Part shown: piece after piece, positions 17,429-36,654 of the stretch
Layout of the letters: the number at the start of each line of letters is the position of its first letter
Numbering within the stretch: position 1 is the stretch's first letter
Origin: a bacterium
GTDB lineage: Bacteria; Planctomycetota; UBA1135; GCA-002686595
Direction of reading: 5' to 3'
Assembly: GCA_030428965.1 (NCBI GenBank)
Contig: JAUIEE010000001.1
Span: 1 to 43,104 of the forward strand
Length of the DNA: 43,104 nt
Notes under the pieces: model-generated
What the model was told of the DNA's origin: nothing
What the model saw: the letters and a program-made list of their open reading frames with translations, nothing else
The model's database searches: none
Program-made: the position numbers and the translations under genes

Positions 17429-18214
17429 CTAGGACTGGCAGCTCGGGCACCAGTAGGTGACGCGACGGCGAGCGCCCAGGGTGGCCGCTTCGATCCGCGC
17501 CCCGCATCGATGGCAAGCTTCACCGCCGCGGCCGTACACCCAGTAGCGTCCCCCATCCCCCGCGTTCCGGGTTGTGCGCAGGTGCGGCCCCAGGTTCTCC
17601 TGCAGGAGCTCGCGGGCCTCTCGGTAGACGGTGGCGAGCTGCGCATCGGCGACGTGGTCTAGCCGGCGCAGGGGGTGGATCCCGTGCAGGAAGAGCAGCT
17701 CGCACTTGTAGACGTTGCCGATGCCGGCGGCGACCCCTTGGTGCAAGAGGACGTCAACCAGAGGCACGTCAGGTTCCAGCAGAGCACGGGCACGCCGCAC
17801 GATCTCGCCTCCGTCGGGGGCTCGGTCTCCCAGGAGATCGGGCCCCAGGCGGTGACGTTGCCCCCGGGCGCGGGCTCCGTCTGCGCGGACACATTCCGAT
17901 TCCATCGCCTGGAAGCACACGAACACGTCGCGCTCGGTCGACAGCACGACCGATGCCTGCCGGGCGGGGCGCTTCCAGCGTTCGCCCTGGGCATAGCGAT
18001 GCCAGGAACCGTGCATGCCCAGGTGGGTGCGCACGATCAGGTCCCCCTCGATGTCGATCCACAGGTGCTTGCCCCGAGCGTAGACCCGATCGACCCGACG
18101 CCCCTCCAGCTTCAGGCCGGGATCGTCCTGGAGCAGGAAGTGCGCCAGGCGTTCTCCCTCGAGCCGGGGAGCGATCGCGCGGGCGATCTTGTGGATCGTG
18201 TCGCCTTCAGGCAT
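17429..18214 (-). CDS. nei: Fpg/Nei-family DNA glycosylase / AP lyase (endonuclease VIII-like)
   Basis: N-terminal MPEGDT provides the catalytic Pro2-Glu3. An H2TH region is present, and the C-terminal zinc finger is CHRCGARIEAATLGARRRVTYWCPSC. The gene overlaps the lhr stop by 8 nt. Confidence 0.85.
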   Translation of the reverse strand: MPEGDTIHKIARAIAPRLEGERLAHFLLQDDPGLKLEGRRVDRVYARGKHLWIDIEGDLIVRTHLGMHGSWHRYAQGERWKRPARQASVVLSTERDVFVCFQAMESECVRADGARARGQRHRLGPDLLGDRAPDGGEIVRRARALLEPDVPLVDVLLHQGVAAGIGNVYKCELLFLHGIHPLRRLDHVADAQLATVYREARELLQENLGPHLRTTRNAGDGGRYWVYGRGGEACHRCGARIEAATLGARRRVTYWCPSCQS

Positions 18215-21200: not shown

Positions 21201-22703
21201 CGAGAGCACGTCCGCCGCCCGGTCCCAGCGCAGGCGCGGGCGCAGATCGGCCAGTTCGTTGCTCGGGTAACGGCCCGAGAGCATCTCGAGCACGCCCTGC
21301 AGCGAGCTCTCCGGCAACTCCCGGTACGGGCCCGCGCGACGCACGAGCTCCCCCAGCTCCTCCGGCGTGCGAGGCGCATCGCAGCAGATCGCCACGATCT
21401 GTTGCGCCAGCACGTCGAGGCAGTTGGCCGGGACCTCGAGCGCCTCGATCTCGCCCTCGAGCATGCGCGCCGCCACGACGGTCGCCTCGAGCAGATCGCC
21501 CTTGAACTTCGGGAAGACGACCCCCCGACTCGTCTCGCCCACCTTGTGCCCGGCGCGCCCCACGCGTTGCAGCCCCCGGGCCACCGATCCCGGCGATTCG
21601 ACCAGGAGCACCTGGTCCACCGCCCCCATGTCGATCCCCAGCTCCAGGGAGCTGGTGGCCACGATCCCGCGCACGTCGCCGCGCTTCAGGGCGTCCTCGA
21701 TCGTGGCGCGCTTGGCGTGGGAGACGCTGCCGTGGTGGGCGAGCACGAGCTCCTCGTCGGCCAGCTCGTTCAGTCGCTGCGCGATGCGTTCGCACAGGCC
21801 ACGGCTGTTGACGAACAGGATCGTCGAGCGATGGGCGCGGATCGCTTCGAGGAGCTCCGGGTAGATCGCGGACCACAGGCCGCGCTCTTCCTGCGATCCC
21901 CCCTGCCCGTAGGATCGCTCTGTGCGCGCGAGCTGGGCCAGGATCGGACCTCCTTCCTCCGCGGGGGGGACAGGTGTCGGCGGCTTCTCCATGTCCGCCA
22001 CGGGGACACGGATCTCGATCTCCAGGCTGGGTCGGGCCGAAGCGTCCACGAGCTCCACCGGCCGACTTCCACCCAGGAAGCCGGCCACACGATCGAGGGG
22101 ACGCACCGTGGCCGAGAGCCCCACGCGCTGCGGCTCCTCCTCGGCGATCTCGGCCAGGCGCTCGAGGGAGAGCGCCAGGTGCGCACCGCGCTTGGTCGCG
22201 GCCAGGGCATGGATCTCGTCCACGATGACCGTCGTCACGGTCGTCAAGGTCTCGCGCTGGCGGGAGCCGAGCACCAGGTAGAGGGACTCCGGCGTCGTGA
22301 CCAGGATGTCGCCGGGGTCACGCGCCTGTCGCTGGCGCTCCCGCTGGGGTGTGTCCCCGGTGCGGACGTCGACCCGCAGGGGCCGCAGGGTGCGACCGGA
22401 ACGGGCCGCGGCCGCCTGGATCCCCGCCAGGGGCGTGCGCAGGTTGCGCTCCACGTCGGCTACCAGCGCCTTGAGGGGCGACACGTAGACGCAGCGCACG
22501 CCCTGGGGAGCGTCCGCGGGGAGGCGCGCGATGCGATCGATCGTGTGCAGGAAGGCCGCCAGGGTCTTGCCCGAACCGGTCGGCGCCACGAGCAGCACGT
22601 GGCGCCCCTTCTCGATCTCGGCCCAACCGCGCTCCTGGACCTCGGTGGGCGCCGCGAAGGCACCCTCGAACCAGGTGCGCGTAGCAGGGTCGAACGTTTG
22701 CAT
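18207..22703 (-). CDS. lhr: Lhr-family large ATP-dependent DEAD/DEAH-box helicase (full length, ~1500 aa)
   Basis: N-terminus FAAPTEVQERGWAEIEKGRHVLLVAPTGSGKTLAAFL, a DEIH box (VIVDEIHAL), SAT, and motif VI QRVGRAGH. The long C-terminal extension is typical of full-length Lhr. Confidence 0.9.
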   Translation of the reverse strand: MQTFDPATRTWFEGAFAAPTEVQERGWAEIEKGRHVLLVAPTGSGKTLAAFLHTIDRIARLPADAPQGVRCVYVSPLKALVADVERNLRTPLAGIQAAAARSGRTLRPLRVDVRTGDTPQRERQRQARDPGDILVTTPESLYLVLGSRQRETLTTVTTVIVDEIHALAATKRGAHLALSLERLAEIAEEEPQRVGLSATVRPLDRVAGFLGGSRPVELVDASARPSLEIEIRVPVADMEKPPTPVPPAEEGGPILAQLARTERSYGQGGSQEERGLWSAIYPELLEAIRAHRSTILFVNSRGLCERIAQRLNELADEELVLAHHGSVSHAKRATIEDALKRGDVRGIVATSSLELGIDMGAVDQVLLVESPGSVARGLQRVGRAGHKVGETSRGVVFPKFKGDLLEATVVAARMLEGEIEALEVPANCLDVLAQQIVAICCDAPRTPEELGELVRRAGPYRELPESSLQGVLEMLSGRYPSNELADLRPRLRWDRAADVLSARSGATLVARTNAGTIPDRGAFGVHVAGGEEAGPRIGELDEEMVYESRTGDTFLLGATTWRVEAIEANRVLVSPAPGEPGRLPFWRGEGPGRPVEVGRALGAFVREYGRGEREEVARRLAAELPLDRFAAQNLAGYLVDQREHCGALPTDRSITVERFRDELGDWRVCILSPFGTRVHAPWAMALERKLADRADAEISLMYCDDGIVLRYADAEELPAVEELFPEPEEIEELLTEQLSSTSLFASLFRENAVRSLLVTRRRPGQRSPLWMQRRKARQLLSVARRYPSFPIVLETYRHALNDVFDLDGLRTILGGVRDRSIRVDGVETPRPSPFARSVVFAYVAAYLYDGDSPVAERKVQALTLDREMLRELLGQAELRELLDGDVIEDLEAELAGLAPGRKARDRDEVADLLRRVGDLGLDEIALRSEDPVSVGAWLDELDAERRAIRIRVAGEERWIAAEEAGRYRDALGCAPPGGLPRDFLDGGPEPLVSILRRFARTHGPFHEREIAARYGLLSSQVEPLLRMLEAEGTLVLGELRPGGSELEWCDAEVLRRIKRRTIARLRDEVAPVDAGTFARFLQTWHGFRTASSKGPPARSGGERLEEVVAQLEGLPLSWNELVLGLLPKRVAGFRLDDLDLLAAQGQVVWIGRGALGPTDGRVALYRREHIAQLVEPGGSEQPASELHAAILNHLSERGASFLTELERALLTDGRFERSAVEPALWDLVWSGQVTNDTFQPLRYLARSRSRGRRAGTRVTLGGGRWSRVSDLVGEGVAPTERALAWAQVLLERYGVVSRSAAQSDEVPGGWGPLYRVLRTMEETGRVRRGYFVEGLAGAQFSTPGAADRLRLERIEPDGLREPVLGSLTPTDPANPWGALLPWPDRDPNAAAPRRARGTRLVLADGEPVLFASAGGRKLTTFGRKEHLERALSLLGEEPRALGRRWLIVQSIDGVDVGEGDYRQILERAGYTRDPKGYAADPSAIRQARERRQAGGLHA

Positions 22704-22721
22704 CGGAATCGGAAGAGGACC

Positions 22722-24251
22722 TCAGCCCGCCATCAGGGCGAGGACGGCTTCCAGGGTATCCGCCTCGCGAGCATCTTTGTCGGGCCGATAGCCCTTCAAC
22801 CGCGCAAAACGCAGGGCGACCCCTCCGGGGTACTGTGGGCTCTTCTGCACGCCGTCGAAGGCGATTTCGACCACGAGCTCCGGCCGCACGTGCACCACGT
22901 GACCGTCGCGGTGGGTTTCGCGGGCCAAGAGCGCGCGCGTTTGCTCCTGCAGGGTGGCGTCGGTCATGCCCTTGAAGGTCTTGCCGAGCATGACGAAGCT
23001 CCCCGTCTCCCCAACGCGCGCGCCCAGGTGCAGGTTCGAGAGCCACCCTTCCCGTCGGCCGCTGCCCCACTCCGCGGCCAGCACGACCAGGTCCAGGGTG
23101 TGGGCCGGCTTGAGCTTGAGCCAGCGCGCGCCCCGGCGACCGGCTTCGTAGGGAGCGTCCAGGGCCTTGGCGACGACTCCCTCGTGTCCACGGTCCAGCG
23201 CTTCGGCGAAGAACGCGCGCGCTTCGTCGGCCGCGTCCGTCACGCAGCGCCGGACGCGCAGAGGCTCGGGGACGAGCGCTTCCAGGACTTCCCAGCGTTC
23301 CTCGCCCGGTGCATCGATCCACGCTTCTCCATCCCGATACAGGAGGTCGAAGAAGATGGGCGTGAGCGGCGTTCGCTTGCGCTCCGCGGCCACATCGAGC
23401 CGGCGGCCGAAGCGCCCCATCGTGACCTGAAAGGGCTCCGGACGACCGTCGGCAGCGAAGGCCAAGACCTCCCCGTCGAGGATCAGCTCCCGGGCTTCGA
23501 AGGCCCGCACCGCTTCGACGACTTCGGGCACCGCCGCCGTGACGTCGTGCAACTTCCGTGACCAGGCGCGCACCTCGTCGCCCCGCTTGTGAACTTGCAG
23601 CCGCGCACCATCGAGCTTCCACTCGTAGGCGGCGCGCCCGAGCTTCAGGGTCACCGCCTCGACGTCGTCTCCCGTGCCCGCGAGCATGGGTTGGATCGGA
23701 CGCATGGGCTCGAGCCCGAAGGCTTCGATCGCCTCGAGTCCGTCCCGGAGACCGGCCAGGGCAACGTCGCGCAAGGAACCGCCGAGCATGGCCGCACGGC
23801 GCACGCGATCCGCGGGCAGGTTGCCGGACAGGGCCACGGCTTCGAGCAGCACGGCCTCCAGAGCCCCCTGGCGCAGCTCGCCTCCGATCAGCTTGCACAG
23901 GAAGCGTTGCTCCGACTCGGTGCACCGCGCCAGGAGCTCGCCCAGGGCCTCGACCTTGCGGCCCTTGGAACCGGCTCCGGAGAAACCTCCGATGCGCGCG
24001 AAGGTGTCGTCTACCTCCGACAGGAGCACGCTCGTTTCCGCCGCCGCCTCACCGGGCAAGGCTTCCTTCACCAGGGACCACCCGATCCCCACCTTGCCCT
24101 GGCGCAGCTCGCCCGCGAAGAACGCCAGACCGATCTCCAGCTCCTCCCCCCGCAGACGACCCAGGAGCTCGGCCAGGAGAGCGGTCTTCTGCTTGCGCGA
24201 GCGGGTCCCGGCAACCTGCTCGCTGGTGTGGACGAGGTCGTGGAATTGCAT
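22722..24251 (-). CDS. ATP-dependent DNA ligase (LigB-type, with an N-terminal DNA-binding domain)
   Basis: Adenylation motif I is EWKLDGAR (KxDG). Also present are LDGEVLA, FDLLY, EGVVAK and WLKLKP, and an OB-domain tail. The start is ATG 24251 (MQFHDLV...). The stop lies 18 nt upstream of lhr. Confidence 0.9.
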   Translation of the reverse strand: MQFHDLVHTSEQVAGTRSRKQKTALLAELLGRLRGEELEIGLAFFAGELRQGKVGIGWSLVKEALPGEAAAETSVLLSEVDDTFARIGGFSGAGSKGRKVEALGELLARCTESEQRFLCKLIGGELRQGALEAVLLEAVALSGNLPADRVRRAAMLGGSLRDVALAGLRDGLEAIEAFGLEPMRPIQPMLAGTGDDVEAVTLKLGRAAYEWKLDGARLQVHKRGDEVRAWSRKLHDVTAAVPEVVEAVRAFEARELILDGEVLAFAADGRPEPFQVTMGRFGRRLDVAAERKRTPLTPIFFDLLYRDGEAWIDAPGEERWEVLEALVPEPLRVRRCVTDAADEARAFFAEALDRGHEGVVAKALDAPYEAGRRGARWLKLKPAHTLDLVVLAAEWGSGRREGWLSNLHLGARVGETGSFVMLGKTFKGMTDATLQEQTRALLARETHRDGHVVHVRPELVVEIAFDGVQKSPQYPGGVALRFARLKGYRPDKDAREADTLEAVLALMAG

Positions 24252-24339
24252 CGGCAGGTGAGCGCTGGGGCAGTTCTCTAGATCCCCCATCGTCGCCGCT
24301 CGAGGTCGTCGTGCCCATGGGCCGACAGCCCCGCGCGCC

Positions 24340-26929: not shown

Positions 26930-29900
26930 TCACTCCCCGACAGACACGAGCCGTCCGCCTGCCGCTCCGCCCCCTGGTCCAAGCTCCACCCGCAGGTCGG
27001 CCGCAGCGATCAGGGAGCCCCGGTGCTCCGCCGCCACGATCAGGTGTCCCCGTTCCGCCAGCCGCAGCAACACGCCGGCTAGCCGGTGCACGTCGGACTC
27101 GTGCAAGCCCGTCGCCGGCTCGTCCAGGAGCAACAGCGCCCGCCCCTTCTTGCGCAGGAGCAACCGGGCCAGCCCCAAGCGCTGACGCTCGCCCCCGGAC
27201 AACTCGCTGCTTCGACGCCCCAGCGACAGGTAACCGAGCCCCACCTCGTCCAGGGCTTCGAGGCCCTGACGCAACTTGCCGAGAGGCAGGTCCTCCCGCA
27301 GCTCGTCGCAAGGCGCTTCCAGGAAGCGGGCCACGTTGCGCCCCTCCCAGAGGACCTCCAGCACACTCGTCCGATAGCGCGCGCCACCACAGTCCGAGCA
27401 TGCCACGGCCAGGTCGGCCAGCACGTCCATCGCGATCTCCTCCCGTCCGCTGCCCTTGCACGCCTCACCGCGCCAGGCCGGACTCAGGTAGGAGAAGGCC
27501 GCCTTCTTGGGCTCCGGTCCGTCGACGCAGCTGTGGTAGAGCGCCTGCAACGACGGCATCAGCTCGAGCGAGCTCAACACGGTCTGCCCGACGCCGACGT
27601 CCCGCGAGCTGAGCCGCTCGTCGTAGACAGCCAGCGGAAAGTCCTCGCCTCCGTTCCGCGGTCTCTCGACCCATTCCACGCGCGCACACTCGACCGGCGC
27701 ACCGGCCGCCATCGACGCCCCGAGCACGTCGAACAAGAGCGAGCTCTTCCCGCTCCCCGACACGCCGGTCAGGCACACGAAACCTGCCCCGGGTAGCTCC
27801 ACATCGATCTCCGCCAGGTTGTTGGCCCGCGCAGCGACGATGCGAAAGCGTCCGGTTCCCGCAGCGGACCTGGCACGGCGCCTGGCCACGGTCCCATCCC
27901 CCCGCAGCGCCTTGGCCGTTGGTCCCTCTCCCGCCAGCACGTCGCGCGCCGGCCCCATCTCGACGATGCGCCCGCCCGCTTCGCCGGCCCCCGGCCCGAC
28001 CTCGATCCAGTGGTCGGCCGCCCGAAGCACCTCGGCTCGATGGGACACGACCACCACCGTGTTCCCTTCGTCACACAGGTCCCGCAGCCGGCTCACGAGC
28101 CCCTCCAGGTCACGTGCGTGCAACCCGGCGCCCGGTTCGTCGAGCACGAAGGTCACCCCGGTCAGACCCGACCGCAACATCCCGGCCAAGCGCACCCGCT
28201 GCAGCTCCCCATCGGACAAGGTGCGGCTGCGGCGGTCGAGGGCCAGGTGTCCGAGCCCCAGGGCTTCGAGATCGCCCAGCTTGCCGCGAATCTCCGGCAG
28301 GAGCGCCGTCCCCACCGCAGCGTCTTCGCCCTCCAGCTCGAGCTGCGCCAACGCCGGCCCCAGCTCCTCCACCGTCCGTCCCAGGGCCGCCGGTAAGGTC
28401 CAGGACCCGACCTGAACCTGAGCGGCCTCTTCTCGAAGCCCCGATCCCCGGCAGAGCTCGCAGGGCTCGTCCACGAGGGCCGCCCGCCATTCCGCCGCCT
28501 TCTGACTCCCGGCCCGCCGTCGCGCCTCGCGCTCCACGAGGAACGCAAGGCCTTCCCAGGGCCCTTCGAAGCGATGCATGCCCTCGCGCTTGCCGCGCTT
28601 GAACGACCACTCGACCTCGAGGACCTCGTCCCCCGCTCCGCGCAAGGCGATCTCGCGCACCTCGGCCGTCAGCTCGGCCCAGGGCTTCTCCAGGTCGGCC
28701 GCCGAGCCCAGCCTCGCCTCGAGCGCCGCCTTCAAGGTCGCCACGTACTGCCCGTCGGCCTCGCTGAAGAAGCGCCCGGCCCGCGTCCCCTTCAGCGCTC
28801 CACCGGCCAGGGGCAGCGCGGGGTGCGTCACCAGTCGCTCTTCGGAACAGCGCGCCACGAAGGCTCGTCCTTCACAGGCCGGACAGGCTCCCAGGGTCTG
28901 CTCGCTGCTGAAGTGCGCGGCGCTCCAGCCCGTTCGCCTGCCGTTCAACCGCCCTGCCCGGGACCACAACAGACGCAGCAACGGTCCGATCTCGCTCTGG
29001 GTGGCCACGCTCGAGCGCTCCCCCGCCCGGGCTTGCCCCTGGCGCAGGGCCAGGGTCGGGCCCAAGCCCGTGGCCGTCTCCAGGAGCGGCCGCTCCGCCC
29101 GCCGCAGGAATCGACGCACCTGAAACGGAAGACTCTCGGCGTAGCGCCGCAGGGCTTCCGCGGCCAGGGTGTCGAAGGCCAGCGCAGACTTGCCGCTCCC
29201 CGAAACGCCGGCCACCACCGTCAGCTTCCCGTGGGGAATGGACACGTCCACCCCGGTGAGGTTGTGGGTCCGCACCCCCACCAGACGAATCGCCTCCGGC
29301 ATGGGAACCGCAGCCCGCGCTCCACGTACCTCCGAGAGGGGCCGCAGGTCCGGCTCCACGTCGTCCCGCGTAACGCCGTCCACCACTTCCGTGATCACGT
29401 CCGCGGCGGCCCACAGGTGTCGGTGGTGGGAGATGGCGACCACGGTGTGCCCAGCCTCGACCAGCGCGTCGATCGAGCGCAGCAAGAGCTCCACGTCCGA
29501 GGGGTGCAGCCCGCGGTCCGGCTCGTCGAGCAGCAGGAGGCTCGGCCTGGCATCGACCGTTCCCAGCAGGGTCGCCAGCTTGACGCGCTGGGCCTCGCCC
29601 CGGCTGAGTCGATTCGAAGCGTGCCCCAAGCCCAGGTAGCCGAGCCCCAGCTCCTTCATCGCCGCGCACAGGTTCCGAACGGGCTCGTCGGAGGCGAAGA
29701 ACTCGCAGGCCTCGCCCACGTCCATGCCCAGCACCTCGGCCACGTTCTTGCCCCGGTGCAACACCTCCAGCGTCTCGGCCGCGTAGCGCCCGCCCCCACA
29801 CGCGGGACAGTCCAGCTCCACGTCCTCCATCAGATGCAGCCCGACGCGCCGGAAGCCCAGCCCCGCGCAAGCCGCGCAGCGTCCCTCCTTGTTGTTGTAG

Positions 29901-31645
29901 GAGAAACGCCCGGCCCCCCAGCCCCGCTCGAGGGCCAGAGGCTCGGCGGCGAAGCGCTTGCGCACCAGGTCGAAGATGCCCGACCAGGTGGCGGGCGTGC
30001 TGCGCGGCGTGCGCCCGATGGGTCGGGCGTCGACCGCCTGGAAACCACCCTGGGGCGCGCCTTCCAGCTCACGGAACGAGCCGGCCGCTCCGCCGGCGAG
30101 GGCAGGCAGGAGGGTCCCGAACACGAGCGAGCTCTTGCCGGCCCCCGACGGACCGCAGACCACGTTGAACGCTCCCAGGCGCACGTCGAGGTCCGCGTCC
30201 CGCAGGTTGTGCAAGCTCGCGCCCCGGAGTCGCAGGTGGGCGTGCCCCTCGCGCCGATTCACCTTCCTCTTCGGCGGGGCACCCAGCGGACCTGCAAGCG
30301 CCTCGCTCGCCTCGAGGGGCCCACTCCCAACGATCTCGCCACCCTCGGCCCCGGCACCCGGCCCCAGCCGAACCAGATGGTCGGCGTGCCGCACCATGTC
30401 GGGATCGTGCTCCACGACCACCAGGGTGTTTCCGAGCTCCCGCAGCTCGTCCAGCACCGTCCGCAGGCCTTCCTGCCCCGACGGATGCAGCCCCAGGGTC
30501 GGTTCGTCGAACGCGATCAGCTGTCGTCCCAGGCCCGCCGTCAACTGCGCCGCAAGCCGCAGACGCTGGCCTTCTCCGCCCGACAGCGTGCCGCTCGGTC
30601 GTTCCTGGGCCAGGTGCCCCAGACCCAGCCGCTGCATGCGCACGAGCCGAAGCTCGATCCCCGGTCGCAGCGCCTCCCGGACCGCGGACTCGGGAAGGTC
30701 CCCCAGGGCCCGCCTCAGCTCCCGCACCGGCATGGCCAGGAGCTGCGGCAAACGCCACTTGCCCACCTGCGATTCCCGCCCGGCCCTCGCCAGACGCGAG
30801 CCTTCGCACGCGCTGCAGGCCACGGTCTCGACGAAGCGCAGGATGTTCGCGTTCCGATTGCGCTCGAGCGTCTCCTGGATGACGGGAACGAGCCCGCGGT
30901 AGTAGCCCTCCTCTCGGGGCCGCGCCGTGATCCCCTCCCAGCGCATGCGCGAGGCGATGCTGTGCTTGCCGAAGGGGACCTTGAGGGCCTTCGTCCCGTA
31001 GAGCACGACGCCCTGCTGCTCGTCCGTCAACCTCTCCCAGGGCGTGTCCACGTCGAAGCCGTGGGCGCGACAGATCTGGTCCATCACCTCCACGGTCACC
31101 TGGCTGTAGACCGTGTAGCCGTTCTTCAGGGTCGGCCGCAGGGCCCCCGCGCGAATCGACCTGGAAGGATCCGCGACGATCTTCTCGGGGGCGACCCGAT
31201 CCTCGAGCCCGAGCCCGCCGCAGGCCTCGCAGGCCCCGAGGGGATGGTTGAAGCTGAAGTGGCTGCGGGTCAGCTGCGTGCCTCCCGGGTCTTCGCCCTG
31301 CCGAGCGAACAAGAGCCGCAGGAGATCCAGGACCCCGCTCAGCGTTCCCACGGTCGAGCGCGAGCTGTCCGTCGCCGTCTGTTGCCCCACGACGATCGTC
31401 GCCGGCAGCCCGCGCACCTCGTCGAGCGCGGCCCGTCCCAGCTTCCCGTAGAACTGTCGCGCCCGCGCCGACATCCCGCTCAGGAAGCGCCGCTGCCCCT
31501 CCCGCACGATCGTGTCGACGACGAGTGAGGTCTTGCCCGATCCGGAAGGGCCGACGACCGCCGTCCAGCTCCCGAGCGGCAGGTCCAGGTCCACGTGCTT
31601 CAGGTTGTGCTCGTGAGCACCGCGCAGGGAGAGGACCGTGGCCAT
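26930..31645 (-). CDS. Tandem-duplicated UvrA-like ABC ATPase with four nucleotide-binding modules; both halves lack the UvrB-binding domain (class II-like)
   Basis: Four Walker A motifs: [36 protein letters not shown]. Four signature/Walker B pairs: [87 protein letters not shown]. UvrA-type Zn modules are present ([18 protein letters not shown]...[17 protein letters not shown], ...CSDCGGARY). The second half restarts with [19 protein letters not shown] near 29300. The start is ATG 31645 ([18 protein letters not shown]), which aligns with canonical UvrA N-termini. An alternative GTG at 31684 overlaps the MarC stop. Confidence 0.85.
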
Positions 31646-31680
31646 GGACGCAGCGTACTCTCTCCGGTGGTCGAACCCGC

Positions 31681-32310
31681 TCACCCCGGAGCCGTCAGGA
31701 AGAAAGCCCGGATGCCGGTGAGCACACCGGTCACGGCGACGGAGGAAAGGATCAAGCCCATCACGCGGCTGATCACGCTGGCCCCCCCCGGGCCAATGAT
31801 CTTGTTGACCCCGCTCGCCGCCAGCATGAGGACGAGGGTGATCAAGAGCACGGCGATCATGATCGCCGCCGTCGCCACCTGCTCCACCAGACTGAAGCGC
31901 GTGCTCTCCGTCATGATGACGGCCGCCAGCATGGAGCCCGGCCCTGCGATCGAGGGAATCGCCAGCGGGAAGATGGCCGTCTCCGAGTGACCGCGAGCCA
32001 GCCTCGTCTCCGCGTCCGGCTTGCTCTCCCCGAAGATCATCGAGAGGGCAAAGAGGAACATGACGATCCCGCCCGCGACCTGAAAAGCCGACCGGGGAAT
32101 GTTCATCGCGGCCAGCAAGTACTCGCCCCCGACCACGAAGGCCAGGAGCACCAGCGCCGAGACGAGGGTCGCGATCAAGGCGACGCGACGACGCCCCCGG
32201 GAATCGTAGTCCTTGGTGACCGCCAGGAAGACCGGGATCGTCCCGATCGGGTCGATGACGGCAAAGAAGAAGACGAAGGTGGAGACGAGCTGCGCGACGT
32301 ACGGGTCCAT
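31681..32310 (-). CDS. marC: MarC-family (UPF0056) integral membrane protein
   Basis: The pattern [19 protein letters not shown]...[16 protein letters not shown] matches the MarC family, with six hydrophobic segments. The start is ATG 32310 (MDPYVAQ...). Confidence 0.8.
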
Positions 32311-32462
32311 CGGGGCACGATAGCAGCTTCGGGGGCGCACAGAAGCTCGCCCCCCGAGACCCGAGCCGAGATCACGGGACGGGCGGCAACCGAGCAGATA
32401 GGATGGGCGCCACGAGATCGAGGACCGCAGCTCCACCACCCCCGAAACAGCCACCCCACGCC

Positions 32463-32822
32463 ATGGCCACCGCATCCCAGGACGAGCGCATCGCGAAGAT
32501 GACCTTCGCCAGCGTCTACCCCCACTACGTGAACAAGGTCGAGAGGAAGGGGCGCAGCGAACAAGAACTACTGAAAGTGATCCGGTGGCTGACCGGATTC
32601 ACCAAGGCCCAGCTCGACAAGCACATCAAGCAAGAGTCGACCTTCGAAGCCTTCTTCAAGGCCGCCAAGCTCAACCCCAACGCGTCCCTGATCAAGGGCG
32701 TGATCTGCGGCTACCGCGTCGAGGAGATCGAGAACCCTCTGACTCGGAAGACCCGCTACCTGGACAAGCTCGTGGACGAGCTGGCCCGGGGCAAGAAGAT
32801 GGAGAGCATCCTGCGGTCGTAG
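32463..32822 (+). CDS. DUF2200-family small protein
   Basis: [37 protein letters not shown]...[36 protein letters not shown] is the DUF2200 pattern. The start is ATG 32463. The gene is visibly less GC-rich and more Lys-rich than its neighbours. Confidence 0.7.
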
Positions 32823-32923
32823 GGCCGCGGCCCTAAGTCCACGACGGTTGCCCGGACCTTGGCGGCGAACGTGAGCCTACGGCCTCGCAAGGCACCAGGA
32901 GTTCAGCCCTCTCGTCGCCAGCA

Positions 32924-33991
32924 TCAGCCATTCCACTCGAAGAGAACGATCTCGGAGCAGAAGGCGGGCCCCATGGCGACCATGAGCCCCGGCGCTCCCG
33001 GCGCGGGGGCGCCCTCCTCCAGCACGTCGTGAAGCACCATCAGGACGGATGTGCTCGAGAGGTTTCCGTGTTCACCGAGCACCTTCCAGGCATGGCGCAC
33101 GTCACGGTCGTCGAGCCCGAGGCCCGTCCGCATCGCGGACAGGACCTTGGGCCCACCTGGGTGACAGACCCAGGAAGCCACGTCGCTCCTCGACATTCCG
33201 TGAGCATCCAGGAACGCGTCGACGTCCGATGCGAGGCGTTCCTCGGCGATGGTCGGAACGGCCGGTGAGAGCACGATGTCGAATCCGCGCTCGGAGATCC
33301 GCCACCCCATCACGTCCTCGGTGTCGGGATAGAACACTGAACGCGTATCGCGCACCCGGAGGCCTTCGATCCCCATCCGGCGAGCACGCTCTTCGCCAAG
33401 GATGACGACGGCGGCCGCTCCATCCCCGAAGAGACCCGAGGAGATCAAGTTCGCGACGGACGTGTCCTCCGCCTGAAAGGTCAAGGAGCACAGCTCGACC
33501 GACAAGAGGACCGCAACTTGATCGGGATAGGCCTTCACGTAGTCCACGGCCCGGGCGATCCCGGCCGCTCCGGCGACGCATCCGAGCCCGAAGATCGGAA
33601 TGCGCTTGATGTCGCTGCGAAAGCCCATCCGGTTGGCCAGGCGTGCATCGAGCGAGGGGCTCGCGATTCCGGTGATGGAGACGGTGAAGATGGCGTCGAT
33701 GTCCTCCGGCACCAGGCCGATCTTGCTCAGCGCCCCATCGACAGCCGCTTCGCCCAGATCTTGCGAGACGCGGATCCAGTGGTCGTTCGACTCACCGAAG
33801 GTGCGCGCGGAGCCATACTCTTCCAGAGGGAGCGCCAAGTAGCGTGACTCGACCTGGGTGTTGGTATGCAAGGAGGCCAGGCGCGACGCAGCGGCAGGCC
33901 GATCCGCCCAGATCTGTTCCAGCTTCTCGCGAATCTCCTGCTGGCTGTAGCGGTGCTCAGGAAATGCGCGCGATACGGATGCGATTCTCAT
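32924..33991 (-). CDS. Type III polyketide synthase (chalcone/stilbene synthase superfamily, alkylresorcinol/alkylpyrone synthase-like)
   Basis: The catalytic Cys is in IFGLGCVAGAAG, the His in WVCHPGGPKVL and the Asn in GEHGNLSSTSVL. The length is 355 aa. The start ATG 33991 overlaps the upstream stop as ATGA. Confidence 0.9.
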   Translation of the reverse strand: MRIASVSRAFPEHRYSQQEIREKLEQIWADRPAAASRLASLHTNTQVESRYLALPLEEYGSARTFGESNDHWIRVSQDLGEAAVDGALSKIGLVPEDIDAIFTVSITGIASPSLDARLANRMGFRSDIKRIPIFGLGCVAGAAGIARAVDYVKAYPDQVAVLLSVELCSLTFQAEDTSVANLISSGLFGDGAAAVVILGEERARRMGIEGLRVRDTRSVFYPDTEDVMGWRISERGFDIVLSPAVPTIAEERLASDVDAFLDAHGMSRSDVASWVCHPGGPKVLSAMRTGLGLDDRDVRHAWKVLGEHGNLSSTSVLMVLHDVLEEGAPAPGAPGLMVAMGPAFCSEIVLFEWNG

Positions 33992-34728
33992 GAAAACAGT
34001 CTCGGAATGAGGTAGGGCACTCTTCGGCGGTAGGCCTCGAAGTTCGTGCCATAGATAGCCGCAAACCGCCGCTCCTTGTAGAGCGGTCCGATTGCGCAGT
34101 AAGCACCCCAAGCGATCGCAATCGCGAGGTGATCCAGGGTCCACACCGGACCTGTCCACAGGACCAGGGCGAAGCCCAGGTAGATCGGTTGCCGGCAATG
34201 CTTGAAGAGGCCCGTCTCTGGTAGATCCGGGTAGCGAGGCCGTCGTCCGCGCCAGGCAGCCGTCCAGCCAATCCAACCGGTCTGGAGCCCCAGCCCCGCA
34301 TCGAACAAGGCCTTGGCGAGGAAGATCCAGGCAGCGGCGAAGGCCCCGATGTGAATCGTCTCCACGATCCCCGCGGGCCGCCACAGGACGATCCCGGACG
34401 GCGACCAGAGACCGAACGTCAGGCCGATCTGAAGTGCGGCGACGAGCGCATAGGTGGTCGGGGACAGCGAGCTCCGGAGGTCGGCCGGTGCCAGGGCTCC
34501 CAGCACCTTCCGGCCTCGCCGGGTCAGCAGGGCCGAGTGGACCAGGGGGAACTGGATCAGCAGGACCCCGTTGACGACGGCGGCAGCGGCACCATCGAAG
34601 GGCCCGATGCTCCTCTCCATGCCCTTGAGCAGCCCCATGGCCATGAGCGCGACCGCGAAGACGAACAGGCCATGGCACGCCAGTCCGTAGACCAGCGCGA
34701 GGGCACGATGTCGTTCTCCGGTGCTCAT
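33988..34728 (-). CDS. Membrane-embedded ICMT/PEMT-family methyltransferase (SrsB/BpsB-like)
   Basis: Multiple TM helices and the C-terminal motif region GLFKHCRQPIYLGFALVLW...YKERRFAAIYGTNFEAYRRRVPYLIP. An AGGAGG ribosome-binding site lies upstream of ATG 34728. The gene has ATGA overlaps at both ends. Confidence 0.8.
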   Translation of the reverse strand: MSTGERHRALALVYGLACHGLFVFAVALMAMGLLKGMERSIGPFDGAAAAVVNGVLLIQFPLVHSALLTRRGRKVLGALAPADLRSSLSPTTYALVAALQIGLTFGLWSPSGIVLWRPAGIVETIHIGAFAAAWIFLAKALFDAGLGLQTGWIGWTAAWRGRRPRYPDLPETGLFKHCRQPIYLGFALVLWTGPVWTLDHLAIAIAWGAYCAIGPLYKERRFAAIYGTNFEAYRRRVPYLIPRLFS

Positions 34729-35369
34729 GCCCCCTCCTTGACCAGGAAGGCACTGTATCCCGGTCCGCGCCGGGATTCCCGCAAGTGAACCGTCCAGGTG
34801 AAAGCCGTCCGCAAGAGCGCGGGTGACTCCCTGACCAGCAGCTGGACGGTCAGTCCCGATTCCCGGGCGTATTCGTGCAGCTCGTCTGGACGAACGAACA
34901 GCCGCGCATCGTGAGTACCCCGAGGTACGAGACCCAGCCCCTCCGCCACGGTGACGACGGCGACGCGGCTTCGCCAGGTTCGGTCGAAGGTGCTCAGGAA
35001 CATCCGGCCGCCGGGCCGCAACAAGCGCGCGGCCTCCCTGAGAGCCGCCGCGGGATCCGAGAGATGTTCGAGCACGTCGGGCACGACGACGAAGTCGAAG
35101 GCGGCGTCGTGGAGCGGACACCGGTACAGATCCGCACGGAGGAAGCGAACCGACAGCTCACACAACTCGGCCTGTGCCCGGGCGGCCCCGATGCTGGCTC
35201 GACCGAGCGCAGGGAGCGGAAGAAGAAGGTCCGACGCTGCTCCTGGGGACCACTCGACCCTCTCGGAATCGAGGGCAACGGCGCGGTCCTCCCGCGCTAC
35301 GACGCTTGGCGCAATGCATGCGCTGGTCGCAGCCATCATCACGATCAAGGCAAAGTGCTGCCCCATCAT
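34725..35369 (-). CDS. Class I (UbiG-like) methyltransferase-fold protein with a degenerate SAM-binding motif I and a hydrophobic N-terminus
   Basis: The C-terminal two thirds align by eye to UbiG-type methyltransferases (FDFVVVPDVLEHLSDPAAALREAARLLRPGGRMFLSTFDRT...VPRGTHDARLFVRPDEL). Where VLDVGCGGG is expected, the sequence reads RVEWSPGAAS. The N-terminus is MMGQHFALIVMMAATSAC. Confidence 0.55.
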   Translation of the reverse strand: MMGQHFALIVMMAATSACIAPSVVAREDRAVALDSERVEWSPGAASDLLLPLPALGRASIGAARAQAELCELSVRFLRADLYRCPLHDAAFDFVVVPDVLEHLSDPAAALREAARLLRPGGRMFLSTFDRTWRSRVAVVTVAEGLGLVPRGTHDARLFVRPDELHEYARESGLTVQLLVRESPALLRTAFTWTVHLRESRRGPGYSAFLVKEGA

Positions 35370-36493
35370 CTCGAGGCCTCCGGCTTGGAGCGGGCACGCA
35401 GGTGCACCCACACGCGGACCTCGTCGTCCATCGAGATGACCCCGAGCTTGTTCGGAACCGGAACGGCGTAGTCCGTGAGCAGCAGTGGCATTTCGCCCTG
35501 GATCACGAGCCGTCGGCTCTCGTCCACGTGCGCCGTGACGTCCATGCTGACTTCCTGGGTCACGCCCCGGATCGTCATCTGACCTGCCAAGCTTCCGGAC
35601 AGGCTCTGGGTCTCCGCATGGATCTCGTGGGGCGTGAGGCGGGTCGCAACGAACGTCATGCCCGCGAACTCGTTCGCTTGAAGGTGTTCGAGCATGGCTT
35701 CGTCCCGACCTTCGAGCCCGGTATCGAGAGTGCTCACATCGACCTCGACCTGCCCTTCGATGCCCTGATCGGGACGGGAAAGATCGAGGCGAAAGTGCCC
35801 ACGTACCCGGTTCGAGATGCCCGTGAAGTCGTGCAGGGTGCTCTTCGCGTCGAAGCCGACGCGGGACAGATCCTCCAGCAGCTCGAAGGTCTGCGTGCCT
35901 TCGAAGCGGAAGTCGCGGGACGGCAGCTTGAAAGCGAGAAAGCTCCGGCCTGACCTTGCCTCGCTGACGCCCACCTCGGGCATCGGCCGCTCGGCGGCTT
36001 CAGCGGCCCTTGCGTTCTCGGCCACCGGTTGTGCAGGTTCCTCGGCCTCGTGCTCGGCCATCGTTCGAGCGGGCGGACGATCCGCTGCGGCAACCCCCGG
36101 CCCGGGCGAGCCTTCGATCGACTCGAGGCGAGTGAGGACGGAGGCGAGAGCTCCTGAGACTTCGCGCGCTTCGAGCGCCAGAGGAAGGGCAGATTCCAGC
36201 TGCCTGATGCGCTCCTCGAGGCGTGCGCGCTCGATACCCTCGGAGCCGTCCCCGTCCTGCACGGCGCTCGCCAGGAGCCCGAAGTTCTCTTGAATGGAGG
36301 TGACCAGAGCATCGAGGTCACTGGAGAGGGTTTCGAGCCGGTCGTCGAGGAGGGCCAGCTCGTCGTCTCCGCCCTCCGCCGTCGGCTGGACGTTGACCTC
36401 GAAGTGTCCCTTGACCCGGTACCAGGCGTAGCTCCCGGCGACGGTCCACGCCAGGAGCGCAACCACGCCGACGGATTGCAGCGCTTTCTTCAT
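35366..36493 (-). CDS. Membrane-anchored protein with a coiled-coil/acidic linker and a C-terminal YceI-like lipid/polyisoprenoid-binding domain
   Basis: N-terminal anchor MKKALQSVGVVALLAWTVAGSYAWY. The C-terminal ~180 aa carry YceI hallmarks (FDAKSTLHDFTG..., VDVSTLDTGLEGRDEAMLEHL, GQMTIRGVTQEV). It is the first gene of the PKS operon. Confidence 0.7.
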   Translation of the reverse strand: MKKALQSVGVVALLAWTVAGSYAWYRVKGHFEVNVQPTAEGGDDELALLDDRLETLSSDLDALVTSIQENFGLLASAVQDGDGSEGIERARLEERIRQLESALPLALEAREVSGALASVLTRLESIEGSPGPGVAAADRPPARTMAEHEAEEPAQPVAENARAAEAAERPMPEVGVSEARSGRSFLAFKLPSRDFRFEGTQTFELLEDLSRVGFDAKSTLHDFTGISNRVRGHFRLDLSRPDQGIEGQVEVDVSTLDTGLEGRDEAMLEHLQANEFAGMTFVATRLTPHEIHAETQSLSGSLAGQMTIRGVTQEVSMDVTAHVDESRRLVIQGEMPLLLTDYAVPVPNKLGVISMDDEVRVWVHLRARSKPEASR

Positions 36494-36504
36494 ACCCCGC
36501 CCTG

Positions 36505-36520
36505 TGCAACTGGCGGGCCA
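36505..36520 (-). promoter_or_regulatory. Sigma-54 (-24/-12) promoter-like motif TGGCCC-GCCAG-TTGCA, proximal
   Basis: On the minus strand it reads TGGCCCGCCAGTTGCA, with the canonical GG-N10-GC spacing. The -12 element ends 11 nt before the YceI-like ATG, which would imply an essentially leaderless transcript. Confidence 0.35.
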
Positions 36521-36575
36521 AGCGGGCTGAAGGGACCGCTCTTTTGCCCGTGAAGGCGCCAGCTGTGGGCTTCCC

Positions 36576-36590
36576 GCACAAGGGTGGCCA
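36576..36590 (-). promoter_or_regulatory. Sigma-54 (-24/-12) promoter-like motif TGGCCA-CCCTT-GTGC, distal
   Basis: On the minus strand it reads TGGCCACCCTTGTGC, with the GG-N10-GC spacing and a conserved TGC at -12. The predicted leader to the YceI-like ATG is about 70 nt. Confidence 0.35.
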
Positions 36591-36654
36591 GGCCCGAGGC
36601 CCCTGGCAGGTCAAAGCTACCGACGCTGGACCGGTAGGAGTTACCGCTTTCGGC

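What the first reader, a model, noticed from the sequence alone, without database searches (positions are those of the whole stretch)
26930..31684. Giant four-NBD UvrA-like protein: a head-to-tail fusion of two class II-type UvrA units, coupled to a MarC membrane protein
Canonical UvrA is about 940 aa with two ABC modules. This ORF is about 1570 aa and contains two complete UvrA-like units. The junction is near 29300, where the sequence restarts with the UvrA N-terminal signature [19 protein letters not shown]...[15 protein letters not shown]. That gives four Walker A, four signature and four Walker B motifs, all apparently intact.

In both units the segment that carries the UvrB-binding domain in E. 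coli UvrA is missing. The sequence goes directly from LLFARQGE...[18 protein letters not shown] in unit 1, and from LLWSRAGR...[16 protein letters not shown] in unit 2. This is the hallmark of class II UvrA paralogues such as DrrC of Streptomyces peucetius and UvrA2 of Deinococcus radiodurans. Those proteins act independently of UvrB and have been linked to tolerance of DNA-binding drugs.

UvrA works as a head-to-head dimer, so a covalent tandem would be a single-chain pseudo-dimer whose halves can diverge. Some divergence is visible. The last Zn module has lost its first Cys (RGEACKGSG instead of GRCxxCxG). The second module has ISHH and lacks the LGPEGG loop.

The gene sits 35 nt downstream of a MarC-family membrane protein, or overlaps it as GTGA if the GTG start is used. 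I recall that duplicated UvrA paralogues have been mentioned in classification schemes, but I cannot verify that here. As far as I know their function is uncharacterised.
Basis: partly seen in the sequence, partly recalled or inferred. Interest (0 to 1): 0.7.

Follow-up and report, generated by a model that had tools for sequence, protein, structure and literature searches.

The report
Tandem double UvrA-like DNA-scanning ATPase
This gene really does encode two complete UvrA-type DNA-damage-sensor units fused into one 1571-residue chain, both lacking the part that recruits UvrB; it belongs to a widespread but unstudied family, and its link to the neighbouring MarC membrane protein is a local coincidence.

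Summary
Window 26930..31684 (- strand) is one uninterrupted frame. The likely start is the ATG at 31645, giving 1571 aa. Residues 1-757 and 786-1571 are each a complete UvrA-type unit, and the two halves align end to end at 35% identity (E 9e-103).

- Motifs: all four Walker A, Walker B, signature and H-loop motifs are present, and they are conserved in 120 homologues.
- UvrB-binding domain: both units lack it. About 140 residues of class I UvrA correspond to 3 residues in unit 1 and 11 in unit 2, and Pfam UvrA_inter is absent although positive controls detect it.
- Not an artefact: 146 species representatives carry full-length relatives, including the cultured Saltatorellus ferox. In 66 of 68 complete loci the frame is uninterrupted.
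- Wider picture: tandem UvrAs are common. All 150 best 50%-identity representatives are long tandem proteins, with class I+I, I+II and II+II architectures.
- MarC: the coupling is not supported. MarC is next to the gene in 0 of 80 related loci, and no neighbour is conserved.
- Missing Zn cysteine: this is private to the window sequence (119 of 120 homologues keep Cys).
- New here: the insertion domain of unit 1 is the most conserved part of the protein. Units are positionally orthologous across the II+II and I+II tandems. Remoter relatives have lost one ATP site in unit 1 only.

The most likely function is a UvrB-independent, single-chain pseudo-dimeric DNA lesion or ligand sensor. I rate it a new member of a known but uncharacterised kind, of moderate interest.

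The parts
26930..31645 (-). Tandem UvrA-like gene (1571 aa plus stop). An alternative GTG start lies at 31684.
   Evidence: Uninterrupted frame. The N-terminus from the ATG matches the family consensus. NCBIfam UvrA models hit in 4 stretches.
29375..31645 (-). Unit 1 (residues 1-757): NBD-I with Zn module 2 and insertion domain, then NBD-II with Zn module 3. It lacks the C-terminal LGPxGG tail.
   Evidence: AF2 model pLDDT 86.9, pTM 0.82. Foldseek TMq 0.87 to B. stearothermophilus UvrA 2r6f_B and 0.75 to UvrA2. Aligns with UvrA2 2vf7 in one stretch, 5-758.
31283..31297 (-). Unit 1 site where class I UvrA carries the UvrB-binding domain and Zn module 1 (residues 117-121).
   Evidence: Residues 6-117 align to positions 27-138 of chain 9gxk, and 121-372 to positions 278-527. 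About 139 residues of class I UvrA correspond to 3 here. No PF17760 hit at E<=0.01, while the control proteins hit it.
30806..31231 (-). Unit 1 Zn module 2 (C139, C142, C277, C280) enclosing the insertion/DNA-binding domain. This is the most conserved segment of the protein, with motifs NGYTVYSQV and [34 protein letters not shown].
   Evidence: PF17755 match at residues 153-238. Information content 3.59 bits, the highest of all domains, and it holds the top sliding windows. Loop 227-243 has pLDDT <50.
29291..29374 (-). Inter-unit linker (residues 758-785), the least conserved segment. Its length is constrained and it carries a semi-conserved PLS..R..R motif.
   Evidence: 1.71 bits. Length 21-43 residues, median 28, in 120 homologues.
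26933..29290 (-). Unit 2 (residues 786-1571): a complete second UvrA unit with a canonical C-terminal tail.
   Evidence: AF2 model pLDDT 91.4, pTM 0.88. Foldseek TMq 0.86 to 2r6f_B and 0.75 to UvrA2. Aligns with 2vf7 in one stretch.
28913..28954 (-). Unit 2 site of the missing UvrB-binding domain (residues 898-911).
   Evidence: In unit numbering, residues 6-119 align to positions 27-140 of 9gxk and 131-380 to positions 287-527. About 146 class I residues correspond to 11 here.
28451..28885 (-). Unit 2 Zn module 2 (C921, C924, C1062, C1065) enclosing the second insertion domain, which is much less conserved.
   Evidence: These Cys residues are invariant in 120 homologues. The domain scores 2.81 bits. 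PF17755 gave two stretches across the protein.
27389..27469 (-). Unit 2 Zn module 3. The first ligand position is Gly1393 (codon ggt) in this sequence only; C1396, C1416 and C1419 are present.
   Evidence: 119 of 120 homologues have Cys at this position. The DNA reads tgg cgc ggt here against ggc cgc tgc in L001.
29798..29878 (-). Unit 1 Zn module 3 (C590, C593, C613, C616).
   Evidence: All four Cys are invariant in 120 homologues.
31529..31552 (-). Walker A of unit 1 NBD-I (GPSGSGKT, residues 32-39). The other three are at 30131-30154, 29186-29209 and 27743-27766.
   Evidence: Regex positions. All four lysines are invariant in 120 homologues. These stretches are the only intragenic DNA repeats.
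31681..32313 (-). MarC/NAAT-family membrane protein, 210 aa from the ATG at 32313. It is the upstream neighbour here, but not a conserved partner.
   Evidence: PF01914 E 4.9e-45. TIGR00427 131.7 bits against a cutoff of 99.2. Absent from 80 related loci.

Best explanation
The gene encodes a natural single-chain 'double UvrA'. Two complete UvrA-type ABC ATPase units arose from an old duplication and are joined by a linker of about 28 residues. Neither unit has the UvrB-binding domain.

Most likely the two units pack against each other through their ATP-binding-I domains, as the two protomers of a UvrA or UvrA2 homodimer do. That would give one DNA groove, four ATP sites, two Zn-finger hairpins and two insertion-domain clamps in a single polypeptide.

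The protein would scan duplex DNA and use ATP binding and hydrolysis to test it for distortion or bound ligands. Because it cannot recruit UvrB, it would act outside the classical UvrABC incision pathway. It could strip or destabilise non-covalent DNA binders, as Ecm16 and DrrC are proposed to do, or it could mark the site for another factor.

The covalent link allows the halves to specialise. Unit 1 carries a hyper-conserved insertion-domain loop and is probably the substrate-reading half. Unit 2 is the faster-evolving partner.

Shown here: the architecture, the motif integrity, the fold of each unit, the absence of the UvrB-binding domain, the family distribution and the asymmetric conservation. 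Inferred: intramolecular dimerisation, DNA as the substrate, UvrB independence in vivo and the nature of the lesion or ligand.
For: - Tandem architecture and motifs.
- Both units fold as full UvrA protomers (pLDDT 86.9 and 91.4; TMq 0.85-0.87 to 2r6f).
- Each unit aligns with class II UvrA2 (2vf7) in one stretch but with class I UvrAs in two stretches, skipping about 140 residues.
- Pfam UvrA_inter is absent, while controls detect it at E 7e-44 and 3e-14.
- All four Walker A lysines and 15 of the 16 Zn cysteines are invariant in 120 homologues. The 16th is Cys in 119 of 120. Walker B Asp/Glu and the H-loop His are invariant in three NBDs and near-invariant (112-117 of 120) in unit 2 NBD-II.
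- The family is real and old: 146 species representatives from several phyla, and 66 of 68 complete loci have one open frame.
- Asymmetry: unit 1 scores 3.23 bits against 2.80 for unit 2, and the unit 1 insertion domain is the most conserved segment. Remoter II+II tandems have a degenerate unit 1 distal ATP site with unit 2 intact.
- Linker length is constrained to 21-43 residues.
- Both units keep the Phe equivalent to C. thermocellum UvrA F66. That residue sits in the ATP-binding-I element at the dimer interface and inserts into DNA (alignments; conservation; role from PMC12796330).
- Precedent for UvrB-independent, ATP-dependent action of class II UvrA, with the insertion domain setting substrate specificity: Ecm16 (PMC9328131; PMC10192343).
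Against: - The full chain could not be modelled (1200-aa limit), so intramolecular dimerisation is not tested. The protein could instead form dimers of tandems.
- No conserved neighbour gives a functional hint.
- No drug-biosynthesis context is conserved.
- Sequence scores are higher to class I UvrA than to the characterised class II proteins, so transferring function from Ecm16 or DrrC is by architecture only.
- The most conserved loop is modelled with low confidence.
- Whether the host also has canonical uvrA, uvrB and uvrC could not be checked.
Confidence: 0.6

Rival explanations
1. It is a self-resistance or drug-tolerance factor of the DrrC/Ecm16 type. On this view it is tied to a local natural-product cluster (the type III PKS-like gene and MMPL transporter just upstream) and works together with the MarC-family membrane protein.
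For: Both units have class II architecture. MarC lies 35 nt upstream on the same strand with no terminator-like site between. A type III PKS-like gene at 32924..34753 and an MMPL gene at 36544..38733 are nearby. UvrA-like genes mark gene clusters for DNA intercalators in actinobacteria (PMC10413001).
Against: MarC, the PKS, YceI and every other window neighbour are absent from all 80 related loci. The best de novo neighbour cluster occurs in only 7 of 80 loci. Relatives at 76-79% identity sit in quite different contexts. Type III PKS products are not typical DNA intercalators (general knowledge). The family is spread as a lone gene across several phyla.
Confidence: 0.12
2. It is the organism's working NER damage sensor, a long UvrA like the curated 1809-aa chlamydial type, and feeds lesions to UvrB and UvrC.
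For: NCBIfam UvrA equivalog models score above their cutoffs (1156.6 against 1147; 1148.8 against 729.8). Public annotations call relatives 'excinuclease ABC subunit A'. Related tandems with I+I or I+II architecture do carry UvrB-binding domains.
Against: The cutoffs are passed only by summing two partial units; the best stretch covers profile positions 265-904. There is no UvrB-binding domain or Zn module 1 in either unit. The score against PRK00635 is 695, far below its cutoff of 3054. Class II proteins do not complement uvrA (Ecm16, PMC9328131).
Confidence: 0.08
3. It is an assembly or annotation artefact: two adjacent uvrA2-like genes joined by a lost stop codon or frameshift, or a collapsed repeat.
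For: The window appears to be a metagenome-type contig. One private oddity exists, Gly for Cys at residue 1393.
Against: The halves are only 35% identical, and there is no long DNA repeat. There are 120 homologue clusters of 1491-1870 aa, nearly all matched over 98-100% of the query. Full-length relatives occur in 146 species representatives, including a complete genome of a cultured strain. 66 of 68 complete loci have a single frame across the junction.
Confidence: 0.01
4. It is a component of an anti-phage defence system, because it matches the PADLOC mad3 and mad8 profiles of the MADS system.
For: mad3 E 5.5e-105 and mad8 E 7.6e-46.
Against: UvrA-type I+I tandems hit the same profiles more strongly (527-593 bits), so the match reflects generic UvrA/ABC similarity. 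MADS is an 8-gene operon in which MAD6, MAD7 and MAD8 are required for detection (bioRxiv 10.1101/2023.03.30.534895). No such operon surrounds the gene here or in relatives.
Confidence: 0.01

Closest known systems
Class II UvrA: D. radiodurans UvrA2 (PDB 2VF7/2VF8)
   Same: Each unit aligns with it in one continuous stretch (5-758 and 6-789). Both lack the UvrB-binding domain and Zn module 1, and both keep the insertion domain and Zn modules 2 and 3. Foldseek TMq is about 0.75.
   Different: UvrA2 is a single unit of about 840 aa that forms a homodimer. Here two diverged units (35% identity) are covalently joined. Unit 1 has lost the C-terminal tail, and its insertion domain is hyper-conserved. 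Sequence scores to class I UvrAs are higher than to UvrA2.
Ecm16 / DrrC (class IIa UvrA self-resistance proteins; PDB 7SH1)
   Same: The architecture is the same. These proteins show ATP-dependent, UvrB-independent action on DNA, with the insertion domain deciding substrate specificity (PMC9328131, PMC10192343). This is the best functional precedent.
   Different: They are encoded inside biosynthetic clusters for intercalators in actinobacteria. The window family has no conserved cluster context and is not actinobacterial. It gives the weakest PDB sequence match among the UvrA-type structures (367 and 298 bits).
Canonical class I UvrA homodimer (e.g. 2R6F, 9GXK, 3PIH)
   Same: It has the highest sequence and structure similarity per unit (520 and 439 bits; TMq 0.85-0.87). 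The ATP-site motifs are the same. The Phe of the DNA-inserting ATP-binding-I element is kept in both units.
   Different: The UvrB-binding domain and Zn module 1 are missing in both units, so the hand-off to UvrB that defines NER cannot occur in the known way.
Other tandem ('long') UvrA proteins, including the curated chlamydial model NCBIfam PRK00635 (1809 aa)
   Same: They also have two UvrA units in one chain. The 150 best 50%-identity representatives are almost all of this kind. II+II and I+II tandems share positional orthology with the window protein.
   Different: Many carry one or two UvrB-binding domains (I+I 61, I+II 6, II+I 2 by spacing; PF17760 confirmed in two). The window protein scores 695 against PRK00635's cutoff of 3054. 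The I+I tandems show no positional orthology and so look like independent fusions.
Heterodimeric or half-degenerate ABC systems (analogy only, from general knowledge)
   Same: Covalent or hetero-pairing of NBDs allows one ATP site to degenerate. This is seen in remoter II+II tandems, where the unit 1 distal site is lost.
   Different: Those are mostly membrane transporters. In the window's own subfamily all four sites remain consensus.

Membership tests
UvrA, class I (NER damage sensor; NCBIfam TIGR00630 / PRK00349) | Two ABC nucleotide-binding domains per protomer with Walker A, Walker B, signature and H-loop | tested here: met
   Present twice over, so four NBDs. Conserved in 120 homologues.
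UvrA, class I (NER damage sensor; NCBIfam TIGR00630 / PRK00349) | UvrB-binding domain (Pfam PF17760) with Zn module 1 inserted in signature domain I | tested here: not met
   No PF17760 hit at E<=0.01, while controls P0150 and P0190 give 7e-44 and 3e-14. About 139-146 class I residues correspond to 3 and 11 residues in the two units.
UvrA, class I (NER damage sensor; NCBIfam TIGR00630 / PRK00349) | Insertion/DNA-binding domain (PF17755) flanked by Zn module 2, plus the C-terminal Zn finger (module 3) | tested here: met
   PF17755 E 2.8e-25 in two stretches. All CxxC pairs are present except the first Cys of unit 2 module 3.
UvrA, class I (NER damage sensor; NCBIfam TIGR00630 / PRK00349) | Score above the curated equivalog cutoff over the full profile | tested here: inconclusive
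   1156.6 against 1147 and 1148.8 against 729.8, but only as the sum of four stretches. The best stretch covers profile positions 265-904.
UvrA, class I (NER damage sensor; NCBIfam TIGR00630 / PRK00349) | Loads UvrB at lesions; needed for UvrABC incision | not testable with these tools
   This needs biochemistry or genetics.
Class II UvrA (UvrA2 / DrrC / Ecm16) | UvrA fold lacking the UvrB-binding domain and Zn module 1 | tested here: met
   Holds for both units. Each aligns with 2vf7 in one stretch.
Class II UvrA (UvrA2 / DrrC / Ecm16) | Single unit of about 750-850 aa acting as a homodimer | tested here: not met
   1571 aa with two diverged units in one chain. The family length range is 1491-1870 aa.
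Class II UvrA (UvrA2 / DrrC / Ecm16) | Belongs to the same clade as the characterised class II proteins | tested here: inconclusive
   Bit scores are higher to class I (520 and 439) than to UvrA2 (454 and 374) or Ecm16 (367 and 298). The nearest positional relatives include I+II tandems. No proper phylogeny was made.
Class II UvrA (UvrA2 / DrrC / Ecm16) | Gene sits in a biosynthetic cluster for a DNA-binding drug (class IIa self-resistance subset) | tested here: not met
   No conserved neighbours in 80 loci.
Tandem (duplicated) UvrA paralogues | Two complete UvrA units in one open reading frame, conserved across species | tested here: met
Chlamydial long UvrA (NCBIfam PRK00635, 1809 aa) | Score at or above the curated cutoff of 3054 bits | tested here: not met
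   695.3 bits.
MADS defence system (PADLOC mad3/mad8) | Part of an 8-gene mad operon with MAD6-8 present | tested here: not met
   No such neighbours were found. The profiles hit UvrA-type I+I tandem proteins more strongly.

The most novel reading that the evidence does not exclude
The tandem is an obligately asymmetric, UvrB-independent DNA surveillance machine. Unit 1, through its hyper-conserved and probably flexible insertion-domain loop ([23 protein letters not shown]), would read one specific and widespread DNA lesion, structure or partner protein. Unit 2 would serve as the structural and ATPase partner. Sister clades have already let the unit 1 distal ATP site decay. This would define a separate repair or tolerance pathway shared by Planctomycetota, Myxococcota, Acidobacteriota and Bacteroidota. 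It would also provide a natural single-chain UvrA in which the four ATP sites can be mutated one at a time.
Probability: 0.3. Interest if true: 0.6.

Novelty: new member of a known kind. Interest (0 to 1): 0.4.

Why it matters
UvrA works as a symmetric homodimer, so the separate roles of its four ATP sites and two DNA-clamping domains are hard to dissect.

A natural covalent tandem breaks that symmetry. Each site can be changed alone, and evolution has already run part of the experiment: one half is more conserved, and one site has been lost in sister clades.

The family is widespread in environmental phyla. It is auto-annotated as 'excinuclease ABC subunit A', although it cannot bind UvrB in the known way, so genome-based inferences about NER capacity can be misled.

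If it acts like Ecm16 or DrrC, it would be a chromosomal, cluster-independent determinant of tolerance to DNA-binding compounds.

None of this is a new principle. The value lies in a well-defined, testable family, with a cultured host (Saltatorellus ferox) available.

Tried and rejected
1. Assembly artefact or collapsed repeat: rejected.
2. Functional coupling to MarC: rejected. tblastn of all window neighbours against 80 related loci found none. De novo clustering of flanking ORFs found nothing in more than 7 of 80 loci. The gene tables of two close relatives differ completely.
3. Defence-system reading from the PADLOC mad3/mad8 hits: rejected by a control with UvrA-type I+I tandems.
4. Plasmid-borne relatives: only single-unit class II UvrAs of about 815 aa were found, and no tandems.
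A full-chain model would exceed the same limit, so unit 1 alone was searched and the two units were modelled separately. The intramolecular dimer could therefore not be examined.
6. Literature on duplicated or 'class III' UvrA: five full-text searches found no paper describing tandem UvrAs. Goosen & Moolenaar 2008, Timmins et al. 2009 and Davidson et al. 2008 are not held. My recollection that a review lists duplicated UvrAs as a separate class remains unverified.
7. A first sub-alignment from locus coordinates failed because of frame differences. It was replaced by aligning each window unit to the full-length homologues.
8. Promoter and terminator scan of 26500-33000: nothing found, so it is uninformative in this high-GC genome.

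Full report
**Observation**

The - strand of window 26930..31684 is one open frame of 1584 codons from a GTG. The ATG at 31645 gives 1571 aa. Its first residues ([10 protein letters not shown]) match the N-terminal consensus of the family, so this is the likely start.

The motif scan finds Walker A at residues 32, 498, 813 and 1294. It finds signatures at 354, 680, 1143 and 1482. There is a DEP Walker B in each of the four nucleotide-binding domains (NBDs). The second unit begins with [11 protein letters not shown] at residue 786, which is nt 29290.

BLASTP of residues 1-780 against 781-1571 gives one colinear alignment of about 800 columns, 35% identity, E 9e-103. At the DNA level only the four 44-nt Walker A segments resemble each other, at 61-75%. 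The duplication is therefore real and old, and it cannot be a collapsed repeat.

**Is the fusion real?**

A search of 5.8 billion clustered proteins returned at least 120 clusters of 1491-1870 aa at 53-80% identity. Nearly all are matched over 98-100% of the query. They come from Planctomycetota, Nannocystales and other Myxococcota, Eisenbacteria and Chlamydiales MAGs, and are named 'excinuclease ABC subunit A' or 'AAA family ATPase' where named at all.

A scan of one genome per GTDB species found 146 species representatives with full-length relatives at 34-80% identity. These add Acidobacteriota/Holophagales, Bacteroidales and Krumholzibacteriota, as well as the complete genome of the cultured planctomycete Saltatorellus ferox Poly30. 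In 66 of the 68 loci that hold the whole match, a single uninterrupted frame spans it. An artefact is excluded.

**Architecture of each unit**

Against class I UvrA structures, each unit aligns in two pieces:
- Unit 1: residues 6-117 align to chain positions 27-138 of C. thermocellum UvrA (9gxk), and residues 121-372 to positions 278-527.
- Unit 2 (unit numbering): residues 6-119 align to positions 27-140, and residues 131-380 to positions 287-527.

The roughly 140 class I residues that form the UvrB-binding domain and Zn module 1 are thus replaced by 3 and 11 residues. Against class II UvrA2 of D. radiodurans (2vf7), each unit aligns in a single stretch.

Pfam finds UvrA_DNA-bind twice and no UvrA_inter at E<=0.01. 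The same scan detects UvrA_inter at 7e-44 and 3e-14 in two control tandem proteins.

AlphaFold2 models of the two units, built with 48-row alignments, are confident: pLDDT 86.9 with pTM 0.82, and pLDDT 91.4 with pTM 0.88. Their best PDB matches are UvrA (TMq 0.85-0.87 to 2r6f), UvrA2 (about 0.75) and Ecm16.

Both units score higher against class I UvrAs (520 and 439 bits) than against UvrA2 (454 and 374) or Ecm16 (367 and 298). 'Class II' here describes architecture and is not shown to mean clade membership.

In 120 homologues, all four Walker A lysines are invariant. Fifteen of the sixteen Zn cysteines are invariant too, and the sixteenth is Cys in 119 of 120. Walker B Asp/Glu and the H-loop His are invariant in three NBDs and near-invariant (112-117 of 120) in unit 2 NBD-II.

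The window sequence is the one sequence with Gly at position 1393, the first Cys of Zn module 3 of unit 2. Its DNA reads tgg cgc ggt where a 79%-identical relative reads ggc cgc tgc. This is a private change or a consensus error, not a family trait.

NBD-II of unit 1 does read ISHH and does lack the LGPxGG...GGxIV tail present in the other three NBDs. That feature is conserved in the family.

**MarC**

The upstream gene (31681..32313, - strand) is a MarC/NAAT-family membrane protein (PF01914, E 5e-45; TIGR00427 above its cutoff). It ends 35 nt before the ATG.

tblastn of MarC and ten other window neighbours against the 80 related loci (flanks up to 8 kb) found MarC in none. Nothing else was conserved either, even at E 0.01. 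Clustering all flanking ORFs of those loci gave no family present in more than 7 of 80. Gene tables around relatives at 79% and 76% identity show unrelated contexts: ABC-2 permeases and an SNF2 helicase in one, BrxL, chaperones and an IS110 transposase in the other.

The gene is a loner, and the MarC adjacency is local.

**The wider picture**

An exhaustive HMMER search with unit 1 against 1.84 billion 50%-identity representatives listed 150 best hits. Almost all are 1450-2340 aa tandem UvrA-like proteins. Summed scores favour tandems, so single-unit proteins rank lower by construction.

I classified each unit by the spacing from the NBD-I Walker A to the Zn-2 knuckle. The result was 61 I+I, 36 II+II, 6 I+II and 2 II+I. 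Another 36 lacked four regex Walker A motifs. Pfam confirmed the UvrB-binding domain in two controls. NCBIfam holds a curated 1809-aa long-UvrA model (PRK00635). The window protein scores 695 against its cutoff of 3054.

Unit-level BLAST shows positional orthology:
- The window's unit 1 is closest to unit 1 of the II+II tandems (mean 632 bits), then to unit 1 of the I+II tandems (441), ahead of any unit 2.
- The window's unit 2 is closest to unit 2 of the II+II tandems (465) and I+II tandems (400).
- The I+I tandems show no such signal.

So one old fusion underlies the II+II and I+II tandems, and the I+I tandems look independent. PLSDB plasmids carry only single-unit class II UvrAs.

**Asymmetry**

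Across 120 homologues, unit 1 is more conserved than unit 2 (3.23 against 2.80 bits per column). Identity to the window is 59-85% for unit 1 and 49-75% for unit 2.

The most conserved stretch of the whole protein is not an ATP motif. It is the insertion (DNA-binding) domain of unit 1, residues 150-270, with NGYTVYSQV and [34 protein letters not shown]. The insertion domain of unit 2 is among the less conserved parts. The core loop 227-243 is modelled with pLDDT below 50. Parts of these motifs recur in unit 1 of other tandem clusters, including I+II ones.

In remoter II+II clusters one ATP site is degenerate while unit 2 stays canonical. That site is built from unit 1's NBD-II Walker A, Walker B and H-loop together with unit 1's NBD-I signature. 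By the naming in PMC12796330 it is the distal site.

The inter-unit linker is the least conserved segment, but its length is constrained (21-43 residues, median 28).

Both units keep the Phe that corresponds to F66 of C. thermocellum UvrA. That residue lies in the ATP-binding-I element at the dimer interface and inserts into bent DNA.

**Mechanism**

These facts fit a single-chain pseudo-dimer. The two units would pair through ATP-binding domain I as UvrA protomers do, giving one DNA groove and four ATP sites, with unit 1 as the substrate-reading half. Because neither unit can bind UvrB in the known way, the protein should act outside UvrABC incision.

The best precedent is Ecm16. It needs ATP hydrolysis, prefers drug-bound DNA, works without UvrA, UvrB, UvrC or UvrD, and cannot replace UvrA (PMC9328131).

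Intramolecular pairing, the substrate and the downstream step are inferences. The full chain exceeds the modelling limit, and no conserved neighbour points to a partner.

**Rivals**

- A DrrC-like self-resistance role tied to the nearby type III PKS/MMPL genes and MarC is weakened by the lack of any conserved context.
- A role as the cell's NER UvrA is contradicted by the missing UvrB-binding domains, although automatic annotation would call it UvrA.
- A defence role suggested by the PADLOC mad3/mad8 hits is rejected. UvrA-type I+I tandems hit the same profiles more strongly, and no mad operon is present.

**Novelty**

Tandem UvrAs are abundant in databases, and one lineage has a curated model. 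I recall, but could not verify, that a review of bacterial NER lists duplicated UvrAs as a separate class. The papers are not held, and five full-text searches found nothing on tandem UvrAs.

The window protein is therefore a new member of a known but uncharacterised kind. The points added here are:
- the size and spread of the II+II family;
- positional orthology with the I+II tandems;
- the hyper-conserved unit 1 insertion domain;
- one-sided decay of an ATP site in sister clades;
- the lack of any conserved partner, including MarC.

Interest is moderate (0.4).

Noticed in passing
window 17429..24290 (- strand): A DNA-repair cluster lies 2.6 kb downstream on the same strand. It holds an ATP-dependent DNA ligase (22722..24290), a 1498-aa Lhr helicase with all Lhr winged-helix modules (18207..22703) and an Fpg/Nei-type glycosylase overlapping the lhr stop (17429..18214). 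It resembles the damage-induced mycobacterial lhr-nei2 operon (PMC9841417, PMC11323726), with a ligase added. It is not linked to the tandem UvrA in other genomes: Nei and the ligase gave no hits, and Lhr gave only two weak partial hits, in the 80 loci.
   Followed up: partly
window 27467..27475 (- strand; residues 1391-1393): The window protein reads W-R-G (tgg cgc ggt) where 119 of 120 homologues read G-R-C. This removes the first Cys of the last Zn module. It is either a private change or a consensus error, and reads are needed to tell.
   Followed up: partly
proteins P0131, P0140, P0145, P0151, P0163, P0165, P0174, P0180, P0203, P0211 (remote tandem II+II clusters): In these relatives one ATP site is degenerate. 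Walker A, Walker B and the H-loop of unit 1 NBD-II, and often the signature of unit 1 NBD-I, have decayed. The corresponding motifs of unit 2 are canonical. This one-sided loss of an ATP site is only possible in a covalent tandem.
   Followed up: partly
PADLOC profiles mad3 (PDLC04135) and mad8 (PDLC04140): These defence-system profiles hit UvrA-like proteins generically. The window protein scores 350 bits, and UvrA-type I+I tandems score 527-593 bits. Lone hits to them are not evidence of a MADS system.
   Followed up: yes
window 31681..32475 and 32403..32822: The longest MarC ORF (264 aa from 32475) has a 54-residue N-terminal extension of odd composition that overlaps the divergent DUF2200 gene. 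The Pfam match starts at Met55, so the real start is probably 32313.
   Followed up: partly
window 32924..38733: There is a type III PKS-like protein of 609 aa whose synthase domains start only at about residue 259. It is followed by a YceI-domain protein (35366..36493) and an MMPL/RND-type transporter (36544..38733). This may be a small lipid or polyketide locus. It is not conserved next to the tandem UvrA.
   Followed up: no
NCBIfam PRK00349 / TIGR00630 scores for the window protein: The UvrA 'equivalog' cutoffs are passed only because two partial units add up (1156.6 against 1147). Annotation pipelines will therefore name this UvrB-binding-deficient protein 'excinuclease ABC subunit UvrA'.
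   Followed up: yes
L083 13009..14070; L081 15081..18257: Close relatives of the gene sit next to an IS110 transposase and a BrxL gene in one contig, and next to a SWIM-SNF2 helicase in another. This shows how variable the context is.
   Followed up: no
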